Virus record (IMG/VR): IMGVR_UViG_2529293015_000001
DNA length: 35,093 nt
Reading direction: 5' to 3' (one strand)
Source: a virus
Taxonomy: Duplodnaviria; Heunggongvirae; Uroviricota; Caudoviricetes
The notes beneath the pieces were generated by a model. It saw only the letters and a list, made by a program, of their open reading frames with translations. It was not told where the DNA came from and searched no databases. Position numbers and translations under genes: made by a program. Shown here one piece after another: positions 76 to 34,816 of this stretch (position 1 is the stretch's first letter; each line of letters starts with the position of its first letter).

Positions 76-2163
76 ATGTCTGTGGAATTTACTGCGGATA
101 GCAATAGTGCTCGACAGCGTGAAACGGTAACTGCTCCGTCATTAGGCGCGGTAGAGGAAATCTCTGCTGGTGTATATCGCTCTGTTCTGGCTGCTGGTTC
201 GCAGGCTGGGACGGTACGTGTAACTGCAAAAGTTCAGGGAAAAACATTTACTCTCAGTATTAAGCAAACAGCAGCAACAGAACCTGATTCTGAGGTCAGT
301 GCTGCTTTAACCGCTGCACCAGCAGAACAGGTAGTTGGTTACAATATCAATCTACAACTGGCAGTGAAGGATTCACAAGGAAATGCAATCACTGGTGATA
401 ACACTCTGAGCTTTTATGCTCTTAACCAGGCAGAAGGAGTCGAGTTTGGGACTGTAACGGAAAAAGACGGTGTCTATAGCGCGACAGTAACTTCAAAACG
501 AGCTGGTAAGATTACTATCGGTGTTAAATCTGATAGTCATGATTTCTCAGGTGTTAAGAAAGAAATCACCTTTATTGAGGACCGGCAGCAGGTTACATTC
601 TCTCAGTTTGAAGCCAGCCAAAATAATGCATTGGCTGATGGAATACAGAGAAATATGGTAACTGTAAGCCTTGCGGACCGTTTCGGCAATGTTGTTCCTG
701 GTTATGCTGTTACGTTGTCCTTACCTGCGGGGGTAACTCAAGTTGGTGGTGAACATGCAGTGTCAACTGACGAAAACGGAAATGCTGTTTTTGCATTAAT
801 AAGCTCCACTCCAGGTTCTTACGTGATTAAAGCTCACGCTGGGCCTCAGGTATCTACTGAGTTAACTGTAACCTTTGCATCAAATATGAGCGGAGCTTCA
901 CTGTCACTGATGCCTGAAAACAGTAGCTTAATTTCGAATATTCCTGCTAATGGTAAAGATGCTGCGGTATTGAATGTTCAGCTAACAAATAATACTAATG
1001 CGTCGGTTAATGGACAGAAGGTTCAGCTCATCACCTCATCTGAAGGGTTGTCTGTGCCGACAAATATCGTGACTGATTCAACAGGACATGTTTCTGTACC
1101 AGTTACAACGGTTAGAGCTGGTGAGTACACGGTAACTGCACGGGTGACTGATGGTTCTAATAGTGTGGAATCTGGAAGCGTTAAGTTAACTTTTGTGCCA
1201 GATATTGCTTCCGCAGAACTCACTATGAGTGTATCAAAACAGCAGATTGTGGCCGATAGCAGTGAAAGTGCAACAGTAGACATTCAGTTGGTTGACGCCA
1301 ATAACAATACGTTTACCGGTGATGTAAATTTAACGATCACCCCATCGACGGGAGCATCATTGACCAGCAGTAAACTGCAGCTGGATGCTTATGGAAAGGC
1401 ATCAACGCAGTTCACTGCATCGAAATCGGGCCAGTACACAATTCAGGCCGAGCATGTTCAGGATGGGAAACGCATAACGGCGAGCCAAAATATTGATGCC
1501 GTGACGGATGTGAAGGAGGCTGTGTTGGAGATCGCATCATCTGTATCTTCTGCTGTTGTGAGCGATTCCAACAATCTTACATTTACGTTGCATCTGAAAA
1601 ATACGTCAGGCGAAGCATTAAGTGGTCGAGCACTGAATATTAAGACTTCTGGACCGTCCAAATATGGTGCTTTGGTGGTTGATAAAACCACAGTAACGAC
1701 TGATGAGCGCGGCCAGGCTACGGTAAGCGTACATGGTCGAACGGCTGGTTCGTATAAATTAACGGCGACCTTAAACGAACTTGGTAGTGATGTTAGCGCG
1801 GTGAAATCATTCTCCCTGTACGCTGATGAAGCAAATGGGGTTCTGAGTCTTGAAAAAGACTATGGTTATGAGGTTAATGACGGCTCTCCAACAGGTATTT
1901 ATGCTCGATTTGTCGATCATTTTGGAAACCCATTATCTGGTACGGTTGAGTTTTCTGCTGGTAGTGAAGATAGTCCAGACTCTCAACACGTCAAAATGGA
2001 ACCTGCTACAGTAACGTTAAGCTCGACAGGTTACGCTGCCTCTGAGTTCAGCACCTATGAAAGTGGTTATCACTGGATTAAGGCCAAAATAACGAATAGC
2101 AAAAATACATATGAGAAAACAATAAGGACTTATGTTGTAAAACTACCTGAAAAGGATAGTTAA
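76..2163 (+). CDS. Ig-like (Big_1-type) repeat adhesin of the invasin/intimin passenger kind; no signal peptide or beta-barrel visible, so probably a 3' fragment or frameshifted gene
   Basis: 695-aa ORF made of about seven tandem ~95-aa T/S/V/G-rich repeats typical of bacterial Ig-like domains; in-frame stops at 13-21 just upstream; no convincing SD before ATG 76; GC lower than phage core. Confidence 0.5.
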   Translation: MSVEFTADSNSARQRETVTAPSLGAVEEISAGVYRSVLAAGSQAGTVRVTAKVQGKTFTLSIKQTAATEPDSEVSAALTAAPAEQVVGYNINLQLAVKDSQGNAITGDNTLSFYALNQAEGVEFGTVTEKDGVYSATVTSKRAGKITIGVKSDSHDFSGVKKEITFIEDRQQVTFSQFEASQNNALADGIQRNMVTVSLADRFGNVVPGYAVTLSLPAGVTQVGGEHAVSTDENGNAVFALISSTPGSYVIKAHAGPQVSTELTVTFASNMSGASLSLMPENSSLISNIPANGKDAAVLNVQLTNNTNASVNGQKVQLITSSEGLSVPTNIVTDSTGHVSVPVTTVRAGEYTVTARVTDGSNSVESGSVKLTFVPDIASAELTMSVSKQQIVADSSESATVDIQLVDANNNTFTGDVNLTITPSTGASLTSSKLQLDAYGKASTQFTASKSGQYTIQAEHVQDGKRITASQNIDAVTDVKEAVLEIASSVSSAVVSDSNNLTFTLHLKNTSGEALSGRALNIKTSGPSKYGALVVDKTTVTTDERGQATVSVHGRTAGSYKLTATLNELGSDVSAVKSFSLYADEANGVLSLEKDYGYEVNDGSPTGIYARFVDHFGNPLSGTVEFSAGSEDSPDSQHVKMEPATVTLSSTGYAASEFSTYESGYHWIKAKITNSKNTYEKTIRTYVVKLPEKDS

Positions 2164-2175
2164 CAAAATTGAATG

Positions 2176-2201
2176 GGGAGGGCTTAGCCCTCCCTCTTTT
2201 T
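2176..2201. terminator. Bidirectional intrinsic terminator between convergent genes
   Basis: Perfect 8-bp GC-rich stem GGGAGGGC/GCCCTCCC (2176-2183, 2187-2194), loop TTA, then TCTTTTT; A/T run on the other side as well. Confidence 0.7.
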
Positions 2202-3243
2202 ACAGGTTAGCGTTTGGGTTTTGTTGTTGGGGAGCTGTTTTTATAGGCGCTCCCAGGTTTTTAGTAAACCACTCAACGACTCTGTTTATAATAATTGGCT
2301 GATACCATGTCTTATCGCCATGCTCGGCCCCTTCTACCAGAACGTACTCAGCGTTATCGCTGTTCTTCTTCAACATCCTGAATAGTTTGGCGCTTTGCTC
2401 CGGTGAAACCAGAGTGTCTTTGCTACCATGCATAATAAGAAATGGAGGTTTTACTCCTTTCATATGTCCGATTGGACTGGCGTTTAGCGCTTTTTCTTTT
2501 GACGCTGTGATGGGGGCTCCCGCAAAATTTCTGAATGCAGGGCCATTGATCATTAAGGCTTCGGTTACGGCAGGAGAGCGATGAACCTCCTGAACTGATT
2601 CAGGGAACCCCTCGCCAATATTCAACAAGTCAGAAATTCCATAAAGTGTGGCAACTGCCTGAACATCTGAGGATTGCTGAAGAAAGTCACCTTTATCAAA
2701 GGTTTTGTCACCATTTGTAGTTCCCATCATCTGGGCAAGCCATCCACCGGCAGAGTCACCCAGAACTCCGATTCTTTGAGGATCAATCCCATAATCGCTG
2801 GCATGCTCTCTCAGGTAACGTATTGCAGCTTTTCCATCCTCAACTGGTGCTGGAAATGTATCAGGAATTGTTCGGTATTCTACAGCGGCCACAACAAAAC
2901 CAGCTTCTGCCAGAGCCATTCTCATTTCAATAAATTTGTCATGTTCAGAAGACATGAATCCGCCGCCGGGATAATAAATAATGGCTGGTTTTAAATCATT
3001 TGTTCGCGGGACAAGAACTGACATGTGAAGCTGTCTGACAGAACGAGTTCCTTTTATCTGGGAGTAAACAACATCACCAATGAGATCGACCTGGTTTCTG
3101 GTCGGTGAAACACTAATGATATCTGCGCCCGGGGTGTAACCAGGAAGATTAGTCTGGACAGGTGTTGCACAACTCCCGACCGACATGGCCATTGACATAC
3201 CATACAATAGTGTTGCAGATGATAATATCTTGTTAATTTTCAT
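2200..3243 (-). CDS. Lipoprotein alpha/beta-hydrolase, hormone-sensitive-lipase-type esterase/lipase
   Basis: 347 aa; N-terminal signal with lipobox-like VGSC; HGG-like oxyanion motif YYPGGGF; nucleophile elbow GDSAG; later Asp and His consistent with a catalytic triad. Confidence 0.65.
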   Translation of the reverse strand: MKINKILSSATLLYGMSMAMSVGSCATPVQTNLPGYTPGADIISVSPTRNQVDLIGDVVYSQIKGTRSVRQLHMSVLVPRTNDLKPAIIYYPGGGFMSSEHDKFIEMRMALAEAGFVVAAVEYRTIPDTFPAPVEDGKAAIRYLREHASDYGIDPQRIGVLGDSAGGWLAQMMGTTNGDKTFDKGDFLQQSSDVQAVATLYGISDLLNIGEGFPESVQEVHRSPAVTEALMINGPAFRNFAGAPITASKEKALNASPIGHMKGVKPPFLIMHGSKDTLVSPEQSAKLFRMLKKNSDNAEYVLVEGAEHGDKTWYQPIIINRVVEWFTKNLGAPIKTAPQQQNPNANL

Positions 3244-4957: not shown

Positions 4958-5094
4958 TGTTTGAGTCTTATATAGCAGAACGTCTTCGCCACCGCTGGAT
5001 GCGCCTGCGCTTATATCGTTTCCCCGGTTCTGTTTTGACCGATTACCGGATACTGAAGAATTACGCCAAAACACTGAAAGGAGCTGCCGCATGA
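4954..5094 (+). CDS. ylcG: YlcG-like small protein (46 aa)
   Basis: ATG 4954 overlaps rusA stop; stop overlaps Q start (ATGA); [23 protein letters not shown]...; same position as ylcG between rusA and Q in DLP12; below the 60-aa ORF-track cutoff. Confidence 0.45.
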
Positions 5095-5798
5095 ATACCC
5101 AATATTTACAGTATGTCCGCGAGCAACTCATTGTGGCTACCGCTGATTTGAGCGGAGCAACGAAAGGCCAGCTTGAAGCCTGGCTGGAGCATGCACAATT
5201 TGATACTGGTACATATAAACGAAAGAAGCCGCGCATTCTGGATGAGGTAACGGGCAAGACGATTACGCTGGATAATCCGCCGATCCCGGGAAAACAATCG
5301 CTGGCGAAAGGCTCATCAATTGCCCTGGTCAGCCCGGTTGAGTTTTCGACATCATCATGGCGGCGGGCGGTTCTGTCTCTTGAAGAACATCATAAAGTCT
5401 GGTTGTTGTGGTGTTATGGCGGAAACATTTACTGGGAGCATCAGATCGCGATAACGCAGTGGGCATGGAACGAGTTTAAGGCTCTGTTAGGTACAAGAAA
5501 AATTGCCAGTAAAACACTGGAACGCTTAAAGAAGTTGATCTGGCTGGCTGCACAGGATGTGAAGAACGAACTGGCCGGGCGTAAGACCTATGAATACCAG
5601 GCGCTGGCGGCGCTGCTTGGTGTGGCTAAATCCACTTGGACGGGGACTTATCTTCCCTACTGGTTGATGATGTGGGATGTATATGTCCGTCTGGATAACG
5701 AAGCATTGTGTCATGCGTCCCTGACTCGTTCGCAACAGAGGTCGACAAACTACCATCAAAATATTGCAAAAACGAACCGGAATCGCTATATTTTATGA
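5091..5798 (+). CDS. Late-gene antiterminator Q-like protein
   Basis: 235 aa; SD AAAGGAG 8 nt upstream; sits after rusA/ylcG and before the lysis cassette, the canonical Q slot; resembles long Qin/phage-82-type Q rather than lambda Q or 127-aa DLP12 QuuD. Confidence 0.55.
   Translation: MNTQYLQYVREQLIVATADLSGATKGQLEAWLEHAQFDTGTYKRKKPRILDEVTGKTITLDNPPIPGKQSLAKGSSIALVSPVEFSTSSWRRAVLSLEEHHKVWLLWCYGGNIYWEHQIAITQWAWNEFKALLGTRKIASKTLERLKKLIWLAAQDVKNELAGRKTYEYQALAALLGVAKSTWTGTYLPYWLMMWDVYVRLDNEALCHASLTRSQQRSTNYHQNIAKTNRNRYIL
5764..5792 (+). promoter_or_regulatory. Candidate sigma70 late promoter (pR'-like), possibly with qut site
   Basis: TTGCAA (5764-5769), 17-bp spacer, TATATT (5787-5792), overlapping the last Q codons. 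Confidence 0.35.
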
Positions 5799-5847
5799 AA
5801 TCCTGATATTATGCGAATATTTTATTCGCTGGTAGTAAACCAGCTTT

Positions 5848-5878
5848 CCCCAAGGAGCTACTCCTTGGGGTTTTTATT
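5848..5878 (+). terminator. Strong intrinsic terminator, candidate tR' ending a ~75-nt leader RNA
   Basis: Perfect 10-bp stem CCCCAAGGAG/CTCCTTGGGG with loop CTA followed by TTTTTATTTATT. Confidence 0.6.
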
Positions 5879-6036
5879 TATTATTGCAACGACATTTATA
5901 ATACCGTTGCTTTATTGTAACGGTGTTCCCTGCTGTAGCCTTATTTTTTTGTGGGTTTTTTCTTGCTGAAGTTTGGCAAAGTGAACTTTGTATGCATATA
6001 CTTCATCCAAATATTCAGTAATATCAGGTGGATGAT

Positions 6037-6771
6037 ATGGCAATTACATGTTCAGTTATATTGGTTCTGGAGTCGTTTGATGTGCCTTTGGGAAAGAATA
6101 GAGTGTTTCTGGAAAAAGGCTCATCTGTACTTGTTGACTATGGAACCAGAGATTTTTTTCTGACATATCCGGAAAGAGTTATAGTAGCGGATTTTGGTGG
6201 TGAATTTATTAGCCGCTATTTGAAAGCTAATAATCTAAGGGGTTTTTCTGATTGTAGGGAATATCCATCTTATATAAAAACAAATTTTGCTGATTTCAGT
6301 CTAATTAAGGGGTTAATTAGTTGGGCTAATCACTGCACTGAATACATTGAAGTTTTAGATGAGTCTATTGCATTTACATGCCTATCCGCATTTGCGTCGG
6401 AAAAACAATTTACAATATTCCTGTTTGGATGTCTGAAAAGTGTAGGGGCTAAAGTTAAAGCGATTATTCATACGGATATGTCTGCACCCTGGCGTCTTAA
6501 AGATATATCTTCAAGATTATATCTCAGCGAAAGTTTGCTAAAGAGGAAATTGAGAGAAGAAGGTCTGTCATTCAGTAAAATTATACTTGATGAGAGGATG
6601 CGGATGGCTGAATATTTACTCAGCACTCGTTGCTATTCTATTCGCAAAGTAGCCGAGGTCTGTGGTTATGTAAGTGTCTCGTACTTTGTTCATGTATTTA
6701 GATGTTATTTTGGTATTTCTCCAAACCAGTATTCACAGAAGAACTCAGAAAGTGAGATTATCACTCACTAG
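6037..6771 (+). CDS. AraC-family transcriptional regulator of the AppY/YdeO/GadX-like subfamily; moron
   Basis: C-terminal twin helix-turn-helix typical of AraC/XylS (…IRKVAEVCGYVSVSYFVHVFRCYFGISPNQY); N-terminus M-x3-CSV parallels the appY-like ORF at 34362; AT-rich island; ATG 6037 with AGGTG upstream (GTG 6028 alternative). Confidence 0.75.
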   Translation: MAITCSVILVLESFDVPLGKNRVFLEKGSSVLVDYGTRDFFLTYPERVIVADFGGEFISRYLKANNLRGFSDCREYPSYIKTNFADFSLIKGLISWANHCTEYIEVLDESIAFTCLSAFASEKQFTIFLFGCLKSVGAKVKAIIHTDMSAPWRLKDISSRLYLSESLLKRKLREEGLSFSKIILDERMRMAEYLLSTRCYSIRKVAEVCGYVSVSYFVHVFRCYFGISPNQYSQKNSESEIITH

Positions 6772-6951
6772 AGCGGCTGTACGGTCTGCTGCTGATAGCT
6801 TTTACGGACCGTAGTAATACACCCAGAATGGACGCCAGCATTATTGCTGGTTTTTTGTAAAGTAAATCCGACAATTTCTTTAGCTATTTTATCTTCCTTT
6901 CTTTTTATCTTCGGTCTGATTATGCCATCCGTTCTGTACGGAGGTGAGGCT

Positions 6952-7167
6952 ATGAAATCCATGGACAAGTTAACAACGGGGGTCGCTTATGGCACATCTG
7001 CGGGTAATGCAGGTTTTTGGGCATTACAGCTACTTGATAAAGTGACCCCATCGCAGTGGGCTGCAATAGGTGTGCTGGGTAGTCTGATATTTGGTTTGCT
7101 GACGTACCTGACAAACCTGTATTTCAAGATAAAAGAGGACCGTCGCAAGGCGGCGCGGGGAGAGTAA
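6952..7167 (+). CDS. essD: Phage-21-type pinholin (S21/EssD family), dual-start
   Basis: 71 aa; [26 protein letters not shown]...[14 protein letters not shown] close to recalled S21; MKSM dual start typical of antiholin/holin pair; SD GGAGGTG; the 6844 ORF-track start is an upstream extension. Confidence 0.8.
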
Positions 7168-7171
7168 TTCA

Positions 7172-7516
7172 ATGATTAAAAGCTATGAGTTGATTGTGAA
7201 AGGGATCCGCAATTTTGAGAATAAAGTTGCGGTAACTGTAGCATTACGGGACAAAAAACGCTTTGACGGTGAAATTTTTGACCTGGACATCTCGCTGGAC
7301 CGTGTTGAAGGTGCCGCGCTGGAGTTTTATGAGGCAGCAGCCAGAAGGAGCATCAGACAGGTCTTCCTGGATGTTGCTGCCGGGTTATGTGAAGGGGATG
7401 AGCAGTCGCCGGAAAAGCGCCCCGTAATTTTAGAGGCGCAGAATGTGTGGATAACCTACAAAGGAAAGCTACCAGGAAGAATTACTGGTTCCCTGAAGAC
7501 TCCACCGAAATGGTAA
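7172..7516 (+). CDS. Hypothetical 114-aa protein between holin and endolysin; possibly YdfR-like (DUF1327)
   Basis: ATG 5 nt after holin stop; same position as ydfR between essQ and rrrQ in prophage Qin; family assignment from memory only. Confidence 0.4.
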   Translation: MIKSYELIVKGIRNFENKVAVTVALRDKKRFDGEIFDLDISLDRVEGAALEFYEAAARRSIRQVFLDVAAGLCEGDEQSPEKRPVILEAQNVWITYKGKLPGRITGSLKTPPKW

Positions 7517-7754
7517 TTTTACCAGCATATTTTTCTTCCAGTAATGCCGCCAGCCACTTAAAAGAATTTTGTTGTTCCTGGGACCATTTGGGGTTGCGTG
7601 ATTCAAGCAGGAGCGATGCCAGTGTTGGTTGCATTTGTTCTCTGGGAATTGATAAGGCCAGATATGAAAATGCAACAGTGAGGGCATTTACATCATCCCG
7701 AAGCCTGGAAATGCAGTCGAGCAACTCCTGTAGAGAAATGGTGTTATTGTCCAT
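7482..7754 (-). CDS. Hypothetical 90-aa protein, antisense to the late operon, convergent with and overlapping the previous ORF
   Basis: ATG (rc of 7752-7754) preceded by a strong SD AAGAGGA with 6-nt spacing; protein-like composition; no family recognised. Confidence 0.35.
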   Translation of the reverse strand: MDNNTISLQELLDCISRLRDDVNALTVAFSYLALSIPREQMQPTLASLLLESRNPKWSQEQQNSFKWLAALLEEKYAGKITISVESSGNQ

Positions 7755-7859
7755 AAATAATCCTCTTGATTGTATTTACCTTTTCCCCGCCTGATTCAAC
7801 AGGCCGGGGCAGATAAACATATCCAGGGTTCAGAAACCGATAAATCCTGATAAATATCC

Positions 7860-8393
7860 ATGAACGCAAAAATCAAATACGGCCTGTCAGCGGCCGTTCT
7901 GGCGCTGATTGGAGCAGGCGCATCTGCTCCTGAGATACTTGACCAGTTTCTGGATGAAAAAGAGGGTAACCACACTACGGCATACCGCGATGGTTCCGGC
8001 ATATGGACCATCTGCCGCGGTGCCACGATAGTAGATGGTAAACCTGTTATTCCGGGCATGACACTGACGAAGGAAAAATGCGTTCAGGTTAATGCCATTG
8101 AGCGTGATAAGGCGCTGGCATGGGTGGATCGCAATATTAAAGTAACACTGACCGAACCACAAAAAGCGGGTATCGCGTCATTTTGTCCCTATAACATTGG
8201 CCCCGGTAAGTGTTTTCCGTCGACGTTTTATAAGCGGCTGAATGCCGGTGATCGTAAGGGTGCATGCGAGGCGATTCGCTGGTGGATAAAAGATGGTGGG
8301 CGCGATTGCCGCATACGTTCAAATAACTGCTATGGACAGGTTATTCGCCGTGACCAGGAAAGCGCATTAGCCTGTTGGGGGATAGATCAGTGA
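7860..8393 (+). CDS. rrrD: SAR endolysin, lysozyme (GH24-like) with N-terminal signal-arrest-release domain
   Basis: 177 aa; [45 protein letters not shown]... recalled as near-identical to DLP12 RrrD; hydrophobic Gly/Ala-rich N-terminus fits a SAR domain and the pinholin partner. Confidence 0.85.
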
Positions 8394-8851
8394 GCAGAGT
8401 CGCCGCGATTATTTATGCTCTGGTTATCTGCATCATCGTCTGCCTGTCATGGGCTGTTAATCATTACCGTGATAACGCCATTACCTACAAAGCCCAGCGC
8501 GACAAAAATGCCAAAGAACTGAAGCTGGCGAACGCGGCAATTACTGACATGCAGATGCGTCAGCGTGATGTTGCTGCGCTCGATGCAAAATACACGAAGG
8601 AGTTAGCTGATGCGAAAGCTGAAAATGATGCTCTGCGTGATGATGTTGCCGCTGGTCGTCGTCGGTTGCACATCAAAGCAGTCTGTCAGTCAGTGCGTGA
8701 AGCCACCACCGCCTCCGGCGTGGATAATGCAGCCTCCCCCCGACTGGCAGACACCGCTGAACAGGATTATTTCACCCTCAGAGAGAGGCTGATCACTATG
8801 CAAAAACAACTGGAAGGAACCCAGAAGTATATTAATGAGCAGTGCAGATAG
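8390..8851 (+). CDS. rzpD: Rz i-spanin
   Basis: GTG 8390 overlaps endolysin stop (GTGA); N-terminal TM helix then coiled-coil-like region; matches recalled DLP12 RzpD; ORF track extends to TTG 8375. Confidence 0.8.
8610..8792 (+). CDS. rzoD: Rz1 o-spanin lipoprotein, embedded in +1 frame inside Rz
   Basis: 60 aa; SD AAGGAG 8 nt upstream; signal peptide with lipobox VVGC; Pro-rich mature part (PPPPPAW...PPPDW). Confidence 0.75.
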
Positions 8852-28968: not shown

Positions 28969-29568
28969 ATGCGTAAATTATGTGCTGTTATTCTGTCCGC
29001 AGTAGTCTGGCTGGTTGCCGCTGGTACGCCAGCGAGCGCAGCAGAGCATCAGTCCACACTAAGCGCCGGGTATCTTCAGACCCATACTGATATGCCAGGC
29101 AGCGATGACCTGAAGGGCATTAATGTGAAATACCGTTATGAATTTACGGACACGCTGGGGCTGGTGACGTCATTCAGTTATGCCAATGCCAAAGATGAGC
29201 AAAAAACGCATTACAGCGATACCCGCTGGCATGAAGATTCAGTGCGTAACCGCTGGTTCAGCATGATGGCGGGGCCATCTGTACGCGTGAATGAATGGTT
29301 CAGTGCTTATGCGATGGCAGGTGTGGCTTACAGCCGTGTTTCGACGTTCTCCGGGGATTATCTCCGCGTAACTGACAGCAAGGGGAAAACGCACGATGTG
29401 CTGACCGGAAGTGATGACGATCGCCACAGCAACACGTCTCTGGCGTGGGGAGCTGGCGTGCAGTTTAACCCGACCGAATCCGTGGCCATTGATATTGCTT
29501 ATGAAGGCTCCGGCAGTGGCGACTGGCGCACTGACGGTTTCATCGTGGGTGTCGGTTATAAGTTCTGA
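28969..29568 (+). CDS. lom: Lom outer-membrane protein (Ail/Lom/PagC family)
   Basis: 199 aa; signal peptide ...AAGTPASAAEH; beta-barrel-like alternating pattern; C-terminal ...GVGYKF; SD GAGAGG. Confidence 0.8.
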   Translation: MRKLCAVILSAVVWLVAAGTPASAAEHQSTLSAGYLQTHTDMPGSDDLKGINVKYRYEFTDTLGLVTSFSYANAKDEQKTHYSDTRWHEDSVRNRWFSMMAGPSVRVNEWFSAYAMAGVAYSRVSTFSGDYLRVTDSKGKTHDVLTGSDDDRHSNTSLAWGAGVQFNPTESVAIDIAYEGSGSGDWRTDGFIVGVGYKF

Positions 29569-34739: not shown

Positions 34740-34747
34740 GTTAAGGT

Positions 34748-34816
34748 GGATACACATCTTGTCATATGATCAAATGGTTTCGCGAAAAATCAATAATCAG
34801 ACAACAAGATGTGCGA
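34748..34816 (-). ncRNA. IS10 RNA-OUT antisense RNA (position estimated by offset from the IS10 end)
   Basis: Known IS10 organisation: ~69-nt RNA-OUT from pOUT, complementary to the 5' end of the transposase mRNA; coordinates are the IS10 positions about 47-115 mapped onto the window, not an independent prediction. Confidence 0.4.

What the first reader, a model, noticed from the sequence alone, without database searches (positions are those of the whole stretch)
5764..5878. Candidate late promoter, short leader and tR' terminator at the end of the Q-like gene
A near-consensus sigma70 promoter (TTGCAA-17-TATATT) overlaps the last codons of Q and is followed about 55 bp later by a perfect 10-bp GC-rich hairpin with T-tract. 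This mirrors the lambdoid pR'-qut-tR' arrangement in which Q modifies RNA polymerase paused near the promoter to read through tR'. The predicted ~75-nt terminated RNA would be a 6S-like leader.
Basis: partly seen in the sequence, partly recalled or inferred. Interest (0 to 1): 0.45.

Follow-up and report, generated by a model that had tools for sequence, protein, structure and literature searches.

The report
Phage 82-type late promoter and terminator
This is the ordinary late-gene switch of a lambda-like prophage: a promoter, a built-in pause signal and a terminator just after the Q antiterminator gene, lined up base for base with the well-studied switch of phage 82.

Summary
ORF 5091-5798 is a Q82-family antiterminator (Pfam PF06323, E 1e-87; 77% identical to phage 82 Q). 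TTGCAA(5764-5769)-17 bp-TATATT(5787-5792) aligns without gaps with the late promoter of 82-like phages. The start is placed by that alignment at A5799. An extended -10-like pause element, TGATATTAT, lies at +6..+14 (5804-5812), followed by GCG at +15..+17. The predicted pause is at +25 (T5823). The 10-bp hairpin 5848-5870 (+50..+72, -17.4 kcal/mol) starts at the same position as the 82-type terminator, so the terminated RNA should be about 80 nt. In 165 related loci the geometry is nearly invariant: TTGCAA in 162, a 17-bp spacer in 164, and TG at +6/+7 with A at +10 in all. Lysis and lambda-type head and tail genes follow on the same strand. Local peculiarities are minor. The Q gene is a mosaic whose C-terminal third and -35/-10 spacer (the 82 Q-binding site region) both differ from phage 82. 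Q has lost its ancestral stop codon and now runs through the -10. A YdeO/GadX-like AraC gene is inserted after the terminator. No transcript or Q-dependence data exist. This is a new member of a well-known kind, of low novelty.

The parts
5091..5798 (+). Q antiterminator gene, Q82 family, 235 aa. The stop TGA at 5796-5798 is positions -3..-1 of the promoter.
   Evidence: Pfam PF06323, E 1.3e-87. 77% identical to phage 82 Q. The exact protein is on 11 public contigs.
5601..5795 (+). Diverged C-terminal block of Q (codons 171-235). Likely the DNA-recognition part, plus a 6-residue extension created by loss of the ancestral stop codon.
   Evidence: Residues 1-170 are 89% identical to 82 Q, residues 171-229 only 41%. 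An AlphaFold model of 82 Q has a C-terminal helix-turn-helix (PMC9371919). The class-B stop TGA is CGG here.
5764..5769 (+). -35 element of the late promoter (TTGCAA)
   Evidence: Same hexamer in 162 of 165 related loci.
5770..5786 (+). 17-bp spacer. Expected position of the Q-binding element, with a conserved block at -29..-18 (5770-5781, AAACGAACCGGA).
   Evidence: The 82 Q-binding element lies between the -35 and -10 (PMC4914094). Positions -29..-18 are nearly invariant within classes A and B. Spacer type tracks the type of the putative recognition helix in 165 loci.
5787..5792 (+). -10 element (TATATT)
   Evidence: TATATT in 158 of 165 loci.
5799..5799 (+). Predicted transcription start (+1, A)
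   Evidence: Gap-free alignment to 82-like phages. Their numbering is fixed by the published GCC at +15..+17 and U at +25 (PMC5001585). Inferred, not mapped.
5804..5815 (+). Sigma-70-dependent pause element: TG (+6,+7), -10-like TATTAT (+9..+14), GC-rich triplet GCG (+15..+17)
   Evidence: 82-like phages have TGATATTTTGCC at the same positions. All 165 loci have TG at +6/+7 and A at +10; TGNTAT at +6..+11 in 161. Roles of these elements are from PMC5001585.
5823..5824 (+). Predicted promoter-proximal pause site (+25/+26)
   Evidence: By register with the 82 late promoter, which pauses at +25/+26 with U at +25 (PMC5001585). The window has T at 5823. Inferred.
5848..5882 (+). Intrinsic terminator (tR'-like): 10-bp stem, 3-nt loop (5848-5870), then a T-rich tract (5871-5882)
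   Evidence: -17.4 kcal/mol. Colinear with the 82-type hairpin, which also starts at +50. 93.5% of cells paired, 9 cells changed on both sides.
5973..6002 (+). Separate promoter of the inserted AraC-family gene (TTGGCA-18-TATACT). Not part of the Q switch.
   Evidence: 10 of 12 match. Identical but for one spacer base in four divergent copies, two of them far from any Q gene.
6037..6771 (+). AraC-family regulator (YdeO/GadX-like) inserted between the terminator and the lysis genes
6834..6851 (+). Second terminator-like hairpin, between the AraC gene and the holin. Q-modified polymerase would also have to pass it.
6952..8851 (+). Lysis cassette: holin 6952-7167, DUF1327/YdfR 7172-7516, lysozyme 7860-8393, Rz 8375-8851. 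First late genes under the switch.

Best explanation
This is the late-gene switch of a lambdoid prophage of the phage 82 type. Host sigma-70 RNA polymerase starts at the promoter embedded in the end of the Q gene, with +1 at about 5799. Sigma-70 re-binds the extended -10-like element TGATATTAT at +6..+14 on the non-template strand, and the complex pauses near +25. Without Q, transcription ends at the hairpin and T tract (5848-5882), leaving an RNA of about 80 nt. When Q (5091-5798) has been made from early transcription, it binds its site in the -35/-10 spacer and joins the paused complex, probably with NusA's help. The polymerase then becomes resistant to this terminator and to later ones. 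It goes on to transcribe the AraC-like gene, the lysis genes and the head and tail genes.

Shown here: the sequence elements, their exact register with 82-like phages, and their conservation across 165 loci. Inferred: the start site, the pause, termination, Q binding and read-through.
For: - The Q ORF belongs to PF06323 and is 77% identical to phage 82 Q.
- The -35, 17-bp spacer, -10, the 11 bases before TGA and the TGATAT element align without gaps to the 82-like phage PhiR47_2, whose Q is 97% identical to 82 Q.
- PhiR47_2's numbering reproduces the published landmarks of the 82 late promoter: GCC at +15..+17, U at +25, an extended -10 in the pause element (PMC5001585).
- Across 165 Q82-family loci: TTGCAA in 162, a 17-bp spacer in 164, TATATT in 158, TG at +6/+7 and A at +10 in all (TGNTAT at +6..+11 in 161), and a terminator-like hairpin in 155, starting at +50 in 109 of them.
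- The window hairpin starts at +50 and has compensatory differences from the 82-type stem.
- The composite motif is unique in the window, with 0.03 expected by chance.
- Displaced copies of the downstream block lack Q and the -35. In them the hairpin and T tract have decayed, while the AraC promoter is intact.
- Holin, lysozyme, Rz, terminase, portal, capsid and tail genes follow on the + strand.
- The mechanism itself is established for Q proteins and for 82 Q (PMC9388147, PMC4914094).
Against: - There are no transcript, pausing or read-through data for this locus.
- The promoter alone scores 9 of 12, which is not above chance.
- The spacer, where 82 Q binds, differs from 82 at 7 of the 12 positions -29..-18, and the Q C-terminal third is only 41% identical to 82 Q. 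So binding of this Q to this site is assumed from co-inheritance, not shown.
- Q has lost the ancestral stop codon and carries 6 extra residues of unknown effect.
- +17 is G where 82 has C. Only changes to A were tested in PMC5001585.
- This variant is rare: it is absent from 5,426 complete E. coli genomes by megablast. A decaying prophage cannot be excluded.
Confidence: 0.88

Rival explanations
1. The hairpin is not a Q-regulated terminator. It is an insulator or terminator that belongs to the mobile AraC-gene block and travels with it.
For: The block 5787-6771, from the -10 to the AraC stop codon, recurs at about 83% identity after tail genes in phage mEp332 and in 645 of 5,426 complete E. 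coli genomes.
Against: In those displaced copies the stem has lost pairs and the T tract is gone, while the AraC promoter is conserved. The hairpin is colinear with the 82-type terminator, which also starts at +50, in phages that have no AraC gene. The displaced copies therefore look like fossils of a late-promoter leader.
Confidence: 0.04
2. The promoter-like match is a by-product of A+T-rich coding sequence. The real late promoter is elsewhere, for example TTGGCA-18-TATACT at 5973-6002.
For: 9 of 12 matches are as frequent as chance predicts, and 5973-6002 scores higher at 10 of 12.
Against: The same hexamers and spacing are kept in 165 loci, in 158 of which the -10 lies downstream of the Q stop (the stop ends at -18) and so is non-coding. 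Site 5973-6002 travels with the AraC gene to places with no late genes. It has no pause element and no terminator after it before the AraC gene.
Confidence: 0.03
3. The cassette is a non-functional relic. Recombination and stop-codon loss have uncoupled this Q from its binding site, so the terminator is never overcome and the prophage is cryptic.
For: Q is a mosaic. Its ancestral stop codon is lost. The variant is rare. IS10 sequence lies at the window end.
Against: The recombination junction lies upstream of the C-terminal block, so that block and the spacer were inherited together. Three sequence variants of this type all keep an intact Q ORF, promoter, pause element and hairpin. The full set of lysis and lambda-type morphogenesis genes is intact.
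Confidence: 0.08
4. In addition to its role in the switch, the RNA of about 80 nt made constitutively in the lysogen acts in trans as an Hfq-binding small RNA, as StxS does in Shiga-toxin phages.
For: StxS is exactly such a late-promoter-to-terminator by-product (PMC7547250). This leader has a stable terminator hairpin with a U tail and an A/U-rich stretch, and folds at z = -4.66.
Against: No Rfam family reaches its threshold here. No target or Hfq data exist. The leader differs from other Q82-family leaders after +15, so any such role would be lineage-specific.
Confidence: 0.12

Closest known systems
Phage 82 Q and its late promoter (82 pR', with Q-binding element, +25 pause and downstream terminator)
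   Same: Same Q family (PF06323), 77% identity. Same -35 (TTGCAA), 17-bp spacer and -10 (TATATT). Same distance to the extended -10-like pause element at +6..+14, and a GC-rich triplet at +15..+17. T at +25, and a terminator hairpin starting at +50.
   Different: The spacer, where the Q-binding element lies, differs at 7 of the 12 positions -29..-18. The Q C-terminal 59 residues are only 41% identical. The pause hexamer is TATTAT rather than TATTTT, and the triplet GCG rather than GCC. Q is 6 residues longer and ends at -1 instead of -18. An AraC-family gene is inserted after the terminator.
Class-B Q82-family cassettes of Raoultella, Citrobacter, Enterobacter and Klebsiella prophages (e.g. 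L006, L025, L093, L125)
   Same: Closest match for the Q C-terminal block (GVAKSTWT.TYLP.WL) and for the spacer (AACCGAACTGAA or AAACGAACTGAA, against the window's AAACGAACCGGA). Same promoter geometry.
   Different: Only 53-56% identical over residues 171-229. Class B keeps the TGA stop inside the spacer. Its pause hexamer is TATCGT and its leader differs after +12.
Phage lambda Q, pR', qut and tR' (6S RNA)
   Same: [quoted passage not shown]
   Different: Lambda Q (PF03589) is unrelated in sequence. Its pause is at +16/+17 (PMC5001585) and tR' stops transcription at +193 (PMC4914094), against about 80 nt here.
StxS small RNA of Shiga-toxin phages
   Same: A short RNA produced by termination just downstream of the late promoter during lysogeny.
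   Different: No match to any Rfam family (StxS itself was not compared directly), and no evidence of Hfq binding or targets here.
Phage 434 late region (Q82-like)
   Same: Q82-family Q, TTGCAA-17-TATACT promoter, TGGTAT pause element at the same position, early terminator.
   Different: The 434 terminator starts at +28 and the leader is unrelated after +12. The 434 spacer is of the 82 type.

Membership tests
Q82-type Q-dependent late regulatory cassette | A gene for a Q82-family antiterminator (Pfam PF06323) immediately upstream | tested here: met
   PF06323, E 1.3e-87, covering 218 of 220 profile positions. 77% identical to 82 Q.
Q82-type Q-dependent late regulatory cassette | A sigma-70 promoter at the 3' end of Q with the geometry of the 82 late promoter | tested here: met
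   TTGCAA-17-TATATT, aligned without gaps to 82-like phages. The same arrangement is in 165 loci.
Q82-type Q-dependent late regulatory cassette | A -10-like sigma-dependent pause element in the initial transcribed region, followed by a GC-rich triplet | tested here: met
   TGATATTAT at +6..+14 and GCG at +15..+17. These are the positions published for 82 (PMC5001585). This is a sequence-level test only.
Q82-type Q-dependent late regulatory cassette | A Q-binding element between the -35 and -10 that is recognised by the cognate Q | tested here: inconclusive
   The spacer differs from 82 at 7 of 12 positions. It co-varies with the Q C-terminal block across 165 loci, but physical linkage is not excluded. 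The exact 82 site was not retrievable: the paper's supplement is not held.
Q82-type Q-dependent late regulatory cassette | An intrinsic terminator shortly downstream of the pause site | tested here: met
   10-bp stem with T tract at +50..+84. Homologous position and compensatory changes relative to the 82 type.
Q82-type Q-dependent late regulatory cassette | Lysis and morphogenesis genes downstream on the same strand | tested here: met
   Holin, lysozyme, Rz, Nu1, terminase A, portal, capsid E, tail tube, tape measure and J.
Q82-type Q-dependent late regulatory cassette | A measured pause near +25 and Q-dependent read-through of the terminator | not testable with these tools
   Needs in vitro transcription or reporter assays.
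Lambda-Q (PF03589) or Q21 (PF06530) cassettes | A Q protein of that family | tested here: not met
   Only PF06323 was matched, at E <= 0.01.
StxS-like leader-derived small RNA | A stable processed RNA that binds Hfq and pairs with targets | not testable with these tools
   No Rfam family reaches threshold in 5600-6100. Only the generic features are present (terminator with U tail, A/U-rich stretch).

The most novel reading that the evidence does not exclude
The window-type Q and its promoter may form a third, orthogonal DNA-recognition class within the Q82 family. The classes are: putative recognition helix KSTWTGTYLPYW with spacer ACGAACCGGA (window), KNWSETFTERW with CTGGATTAA (82 type), and KSTWTETYLPHW with CCGAACTGA (class B). 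If so, natural helix-site pairs would give a direct handle on how this Q family reads DNA and loads onto polymerase. No member of the family has a solved structure.
Probability: 0.4. Interest if true: 0.35.

Novelty: new member of a known kind. Interest (0 to 1): 0.15.

Why it matters
It mainly serves annotation. It fixes the late promoter, pause element and first terminator of this prophage. It also shows that the YdeO/GadX-like regulator lies inside the Q-controlled late transcript, as toxin genes do in Shiga-toxin phages, so prophage induction should boost its expression.

Two by-products have modest wider use. First, the survey of 165 loci gives a sequence footprint of the Q82-type switch, including a conserved block at -29..-18 that is a candidate Q-binding element. 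It also shows a strict association between that block and the Q C-terminal helix type, in a family with no solved structure. Second, the widespread chromosomal AraC module carries a fossil late-promoter leader, which records where the module came from.

Tried and rejected
- **Structure prediction of Q.** AlphaFold2 with a 44-sequence alignment gave mean pLDDT 42. The model is unusable, so no fold search was run.
- **Solved structures.** Sequence and profile searches of the PDB found nothing, even at E <= 10.
- **Rfam.** No family reaches threshold in the leader. All matches in 5600-6100 are far below gathering scores.
- **Exact 82 Q-binding site.** The supplement with the template sequences is not held. 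A full-text search for the leader sequence found only unrelated papers.
- **Species-representative genomes.** The scan returned only 3 loci. The viral-contig scans were far more useful.
- **Small ORF 5811-5969 (52 aa) across the leader.** Rejected. It has no ribosome-binding site and no Pfam hit, it reads through the terminator, its C-terminus shifts in the closest variants, and it is broken in mEp332.
- **Minus-strand promoter-like site 5817->5790.** Treated as a chance match in A+T-rich sequence.
- **Promoter 5973-6002 as the late promoter.** Rejected, because it belongs to the AraC module.
- **Inverted repeat GCAACG-N13-CGTTGC at 5886-5910.** It surrounds a perfect TATAAT but is not conserved in the displaced copies. 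Not pursued.

Full report
**What is in the sequence.** Window 5764-5882 contains TTGCAA (5764-5769), a 17-bp spacer and TATATT (5787-5792). These overlap the last codons of ORF 5091-5798, whose stop TGA is at 5796-5798. Fifty-five bases after the -10 lies a perfect 10-bp stem with a 3-nt loop (CCCCAAGGAG-CTA-CTCCTTGGGG, 5848-5870; 7 G-C pairs; -17.4 kcal/mol) followed by TTTTTATTTATT.

The promoter matches 9 of 12 consensus positions. That is no more frequent than chance: 9 sites in 4 kb against 7.3 +/- 2.8 in shuffles. The case therefore rests on context. The composite TTGCAA-N17-TATATT-N11-TGATAT occurs once in 35 kb, against 0.03 expected. The leader 5799-5880 folds to -28.7 kcal/mol, z = -4.66.

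**The gene upstream.** ORF 5091-5798 is a Q82-family antiterminator: Pfam PF06323, E 1.3e-87, with no hit to the lambda-Q or Q21 families. It is 77% identical to phage 82 Q from X92588. The neighbourhood is the phage 82 / DLP12-type nin region (ybcN-like, NinE, YbcO, RusA, YlcG, then Q). Downstream on the same strand are:

- an AraC-family gene (6037-6771);
- a P21-type holin (6952-7167), DUF1327/YdfR, lysozyme and Rz;
- lambda-type Nu1, terminase A, portal, protease, capsid E, tail tube, tape measure and J.

The window is contig CADHNQ010000008.1 of assembly GCA_902849155.1.

**Register with the phage 82 late promoter.** The X92588 record ends at the Q stop, but it already shows AATATTGCAAAACTGGATTAA. 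Phage PhiR47_2, whose Q is 97% identical to 82 Q, supplies the rest: TTGCAA-AACTGGATTAAAAATCA-TATATT-TTATGT-AAATCTGATATTTTGCCAATGTTGT....

Counting +1 as the seventh base after the -10 puts GCC at +15..+17 and T at +25. These are exactly the landmarks published for the 82 late promoter: discriminator-like GCC at +15-17, major pause at +25/+26 with U at +25, and a pause element with an extended -10 (PMC5001585).

The window aligns to this without any gap: TTGCAA-AAACGAACCGGAATCGC-TATATT-TTATGA-AATCCTGATATTATGCGAATATTTT. That gives the following assignments:

| Feature | Position | Window coordinates |
|---|---|---|
| Start (A) | +1 | 5799 |
| TG of the extended -10-like element | +6, +7 | 5804-5805 |
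| -10-like hexamer TATTAT (5 of 6 to consensus; 82 has TATTTT) | +9..+14 | 5807-5812 |
| GC-rich triplet GCG | +15..+17 | 5813-5815 |
| Predicted pause (T) | +25 | 5823 |

**The terminator.** The hairpin occupies +50..+72. In 82-like phages the first hairpin (AAGCCCGAGG...CCTTGGGCTT, -17.8 kcal/mol) also starts at +50. The two leaders are colinear. On an alignment of ten leaders, 93.5% of cells in the ten stem pairs form standard pairs, against 21-70% when the partner is slid. Nine cells are changed on both sides, against 2.7 +/- 1.5 in shuffles. Release 7-9 nt after the stem predicts an RNA of about 79-81 nt.

**Family-wide geometry.** I collected Q82-family loci from species-representative genomes, public assemblies and two scans of viral contigs. 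That gave 165 parsable loci with 83 distinct sequences over -40..+110. Results:

- TTGCAA in 162;
- a 17-bp spacer in 164;
- TATATT in 158 (the rest CATATT or TATACT);
- TG at +6/+7 and A at +10 in all 165, with TGNTAT at +6..+11 in 161 (four loci read TGATAG);
- a terminator-like hairpin starting between +28 and +51 in 155, at +50 in 109 of them.

Within the 82-type class (28 distinct sequences) variation is concentrated at -17..-13, -6..-1, +12/+13 and beyond +15. The -35, positions -29..-18, the -10 and the TG-N-TAT element are nearly invariant. This reads as a phylogenetic footprint of the promoter, a candidate Q-binding element and the pause element. The published statement is that the 82 Q-binding element lies between the -35 and -10, within -31..+30 (PMC4914094).

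**How it most likely works.** The mechanism follows from the established biology of Q proteins (PMC9388147, PMC4914094, PMC5001585).

1. Sigma-70 holoenzyme initiates at about 5799.
2. Sigma region 2 re-binds TGATATTAT on the non-template strand. After a few nucleotides of scrunching, the complex pauses near +25.
3. Without Q it resumes and terminates at 5848-5882.
4. With Q bound in the spacer, and with NusA stimulating as it does for 82 Q, the complex is modified. It then reads through this terminator, the second hairpin at 6834-6851 and later signals into the lysis and morphogenesis genes.

Only the sequence anatomy and its conservation are shown here. The start, pause, termination and Q dependence are inferred by homology.

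**What is particular to this locus.**

1. *Q is a mosaic.* Residues 1-170 are 89% identical to 82 Q, but residues 171-229 only 41%. The nearest C-termini, at 53-56%, are in a class common in Raoultella, Citrobacter, Enterobacter and Klebsiella prophages.
2. *The spacer differs in parallel.* The 82 type reads AACTGGATTAAA, class B reads AACCGAACTGAA and the window reads AAACGAACCGGA at -29..-18. Across 165 loci the putative recognition-helix type (KNWSETFT, KSTWTETY or KSTWTGTY) and the spacer type are perfectly associated, including in recombinants such as L025, L007 and L173. An AlphaFold model of 82 Q places a helix-turn-helix in the C-terminal segment (PMC9371919). The association fits co-evolving Q and binding-site specificity. 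However, the two features lie within about 150 bp of each other, and the spacer also encodes the last Q codons, so linkage is not excluded.
3. *The ancestral stop codon is lost.* The class-B stop (TGA inside the spacer; L125 has AAACGAACTGA) is CGG here and CAG in L011. Q therefore runs on for 5-6 residues through the -10 and stops at -3..-1.
4. *The type is rare.* The exact protein is on 11 contigs, with two near clusters of 28 and 3 member sequences. No megablast match to 5600-6030 exists in 5,426 complete E. coli genomes.

**The insertion downstream.** The AraC-family protein is YdeO/GadX-like, below the family cut-offs. It has its own promoter, TTGGCA-18-TATACT at 5973-6002.

The block 5787-6771 starts exactly at the -10 and ends at the AraC stop codon. 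It recurs at about 83% identity after the tail genes of phage mEp332 and in 645 of 5,426 complete E. coli genomes, for example beside pinE and tail-fibre genes. In those copies the -35 and spacer are absent, the stem has lost pairs and the T tract is gone. The AraC promoter is unchanged apart from one spacer base.

This argues that the hairpin belongs functionally to the Q switch rather than to the AraC module. It also shows that the widespread module carries a fossil late-promoter leader.

**Rivals considered.**

- *The hairpin is an insulator of the AraC module* (0.04). Contradicted by its decay in displaced copies and by its presence at the same position in phages without the AraC gene.
- *The promoter is a chance match* (0.03). 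Contradicted by its conservation in 165 loci, in 158 of which the -10 lies downstream of the Q stop and so is non-coding.
- *The cassette is a dead relic* (0.08). Possible, but three sequence variants of this type keep every element and an intact Q.
- *The leader doubles as a StxS-like small RNA* (0.12). There is a precedent (PMC7547250) but no evidence here. This reading is compatible with the main explanation rather than a replacement for it.

**Dead ends.** The AlphaFold2 model of Q was unusable, with pLDDT 42. There is no PDB relative by sequence or profile, which matches the published remark that the Q82 family remains structurally unexplored (PMC9388147). Rfam has no matching family. The ORF 5811-5969 is spurious.

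**Verdict.** The locus is a new member of the phage 82-type Q-dependent late switch, with a variant Q C-terminus and spacer, a stop-codon read-on and an inserted regulator gene. Interest is low (0.15). The most novel reading still open is a distinct Q/binding-site specificity class within the Q82 family (probability about 0.4, interest about 0.35 if true).

Noticed in passing
window 5973-6851: A YdeO/GadX-like AraC-family gene (6037-6771) sits between the late terminator and the holin. It has its own promoter (5973-6002), unchanged apart from one spacer base across four divergent copies, and its own terminator-like hairpin (6834-6851). Like toxin genes in Shiga-toxin phages, it would be expressed from its own promoter in the lysogen and boosted by Q on induction.
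   Followed up: partly
window 5787-6771; L003 2501-3479; L175 3501-4479: The block from the late-promoter -10 to the AraC stop codon recurs at about 83% identity after tail genes in phage mEp332 and in 645 of 5,426 complete E. coli genomes. Those copies have no -35 or spacer and a decayed hairpin, so they carry a fossil late-promoter leader attached to a mobile gene.
   Followed up: partly
window 5770-5798: The Q stop codon of related phages (TGA within the spacer) is CGG here and CAG in a near relative. Q therefore reads on for 5-6 residues through the -10 and stops at -3..-1 of its own target promoter.
   Followed up: yes
window 5756-5769, minus strand: The -35 hexamer TTGCAA is its own reverse complement. 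On the minus strand of 82-type and class-B phages it forms TTGC-N6-TTGC, which is annotated in phage 434 as a CII-binding site for the antisense promoter paQ. The window has TTGCAATATTTTGA, a 7 of 8 match. No cII gene is in the window.
   Followed up: partly
165 Q82-family loci (L002-L174): There is a strict association between the type of Q residues about 176-195 (KNWSETFT, KSTWTETY or KSTWTGTY) and the -29..-18 spacer sequence (CTGGATTAA, CCGAACTGA or ACGAACCGGA). These are candidate recognition-helix and Q-binding-site pairs. Physical linkage is not excluded.
   Followed up: partly
window 34747-34816, minus strand: RNA-OUT of IS10/Tn10 (Rfam RF00240, 98.8 bits) at the right end of the contig. 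An IS10 copy lies next to the prophage tail region.
   Followed up: no
window 76-3243: An invasin-like ORF with Big_1/Invasin_D3 repeats (76-2163; 1303 aa on a longer contig) and an alpha/beta-hydrolase esterase (2200-3243, minus strand) lie just left of the nin region. The esterase is also present in phage PhiR47_2, so these look like phage-carried accessory genes.
   Followed up: no
window 28969-29568: An outer-membrane protein of the Lom/Ail/OmpX type (best NCBIfam match 'resistance to complement killing', below cut-off) follows the J tail-tip gene, at the usual lambda lom position.
   Followed up: no
window 5886-5910: An inverted repeat GCAACG-N13-CGTTGC surrounds a perfect TATAAT (5897-5902), just after the terminator. 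It is not conserved in the displaced AraC modules, and its meaning is unknown.
   Followed up: partly
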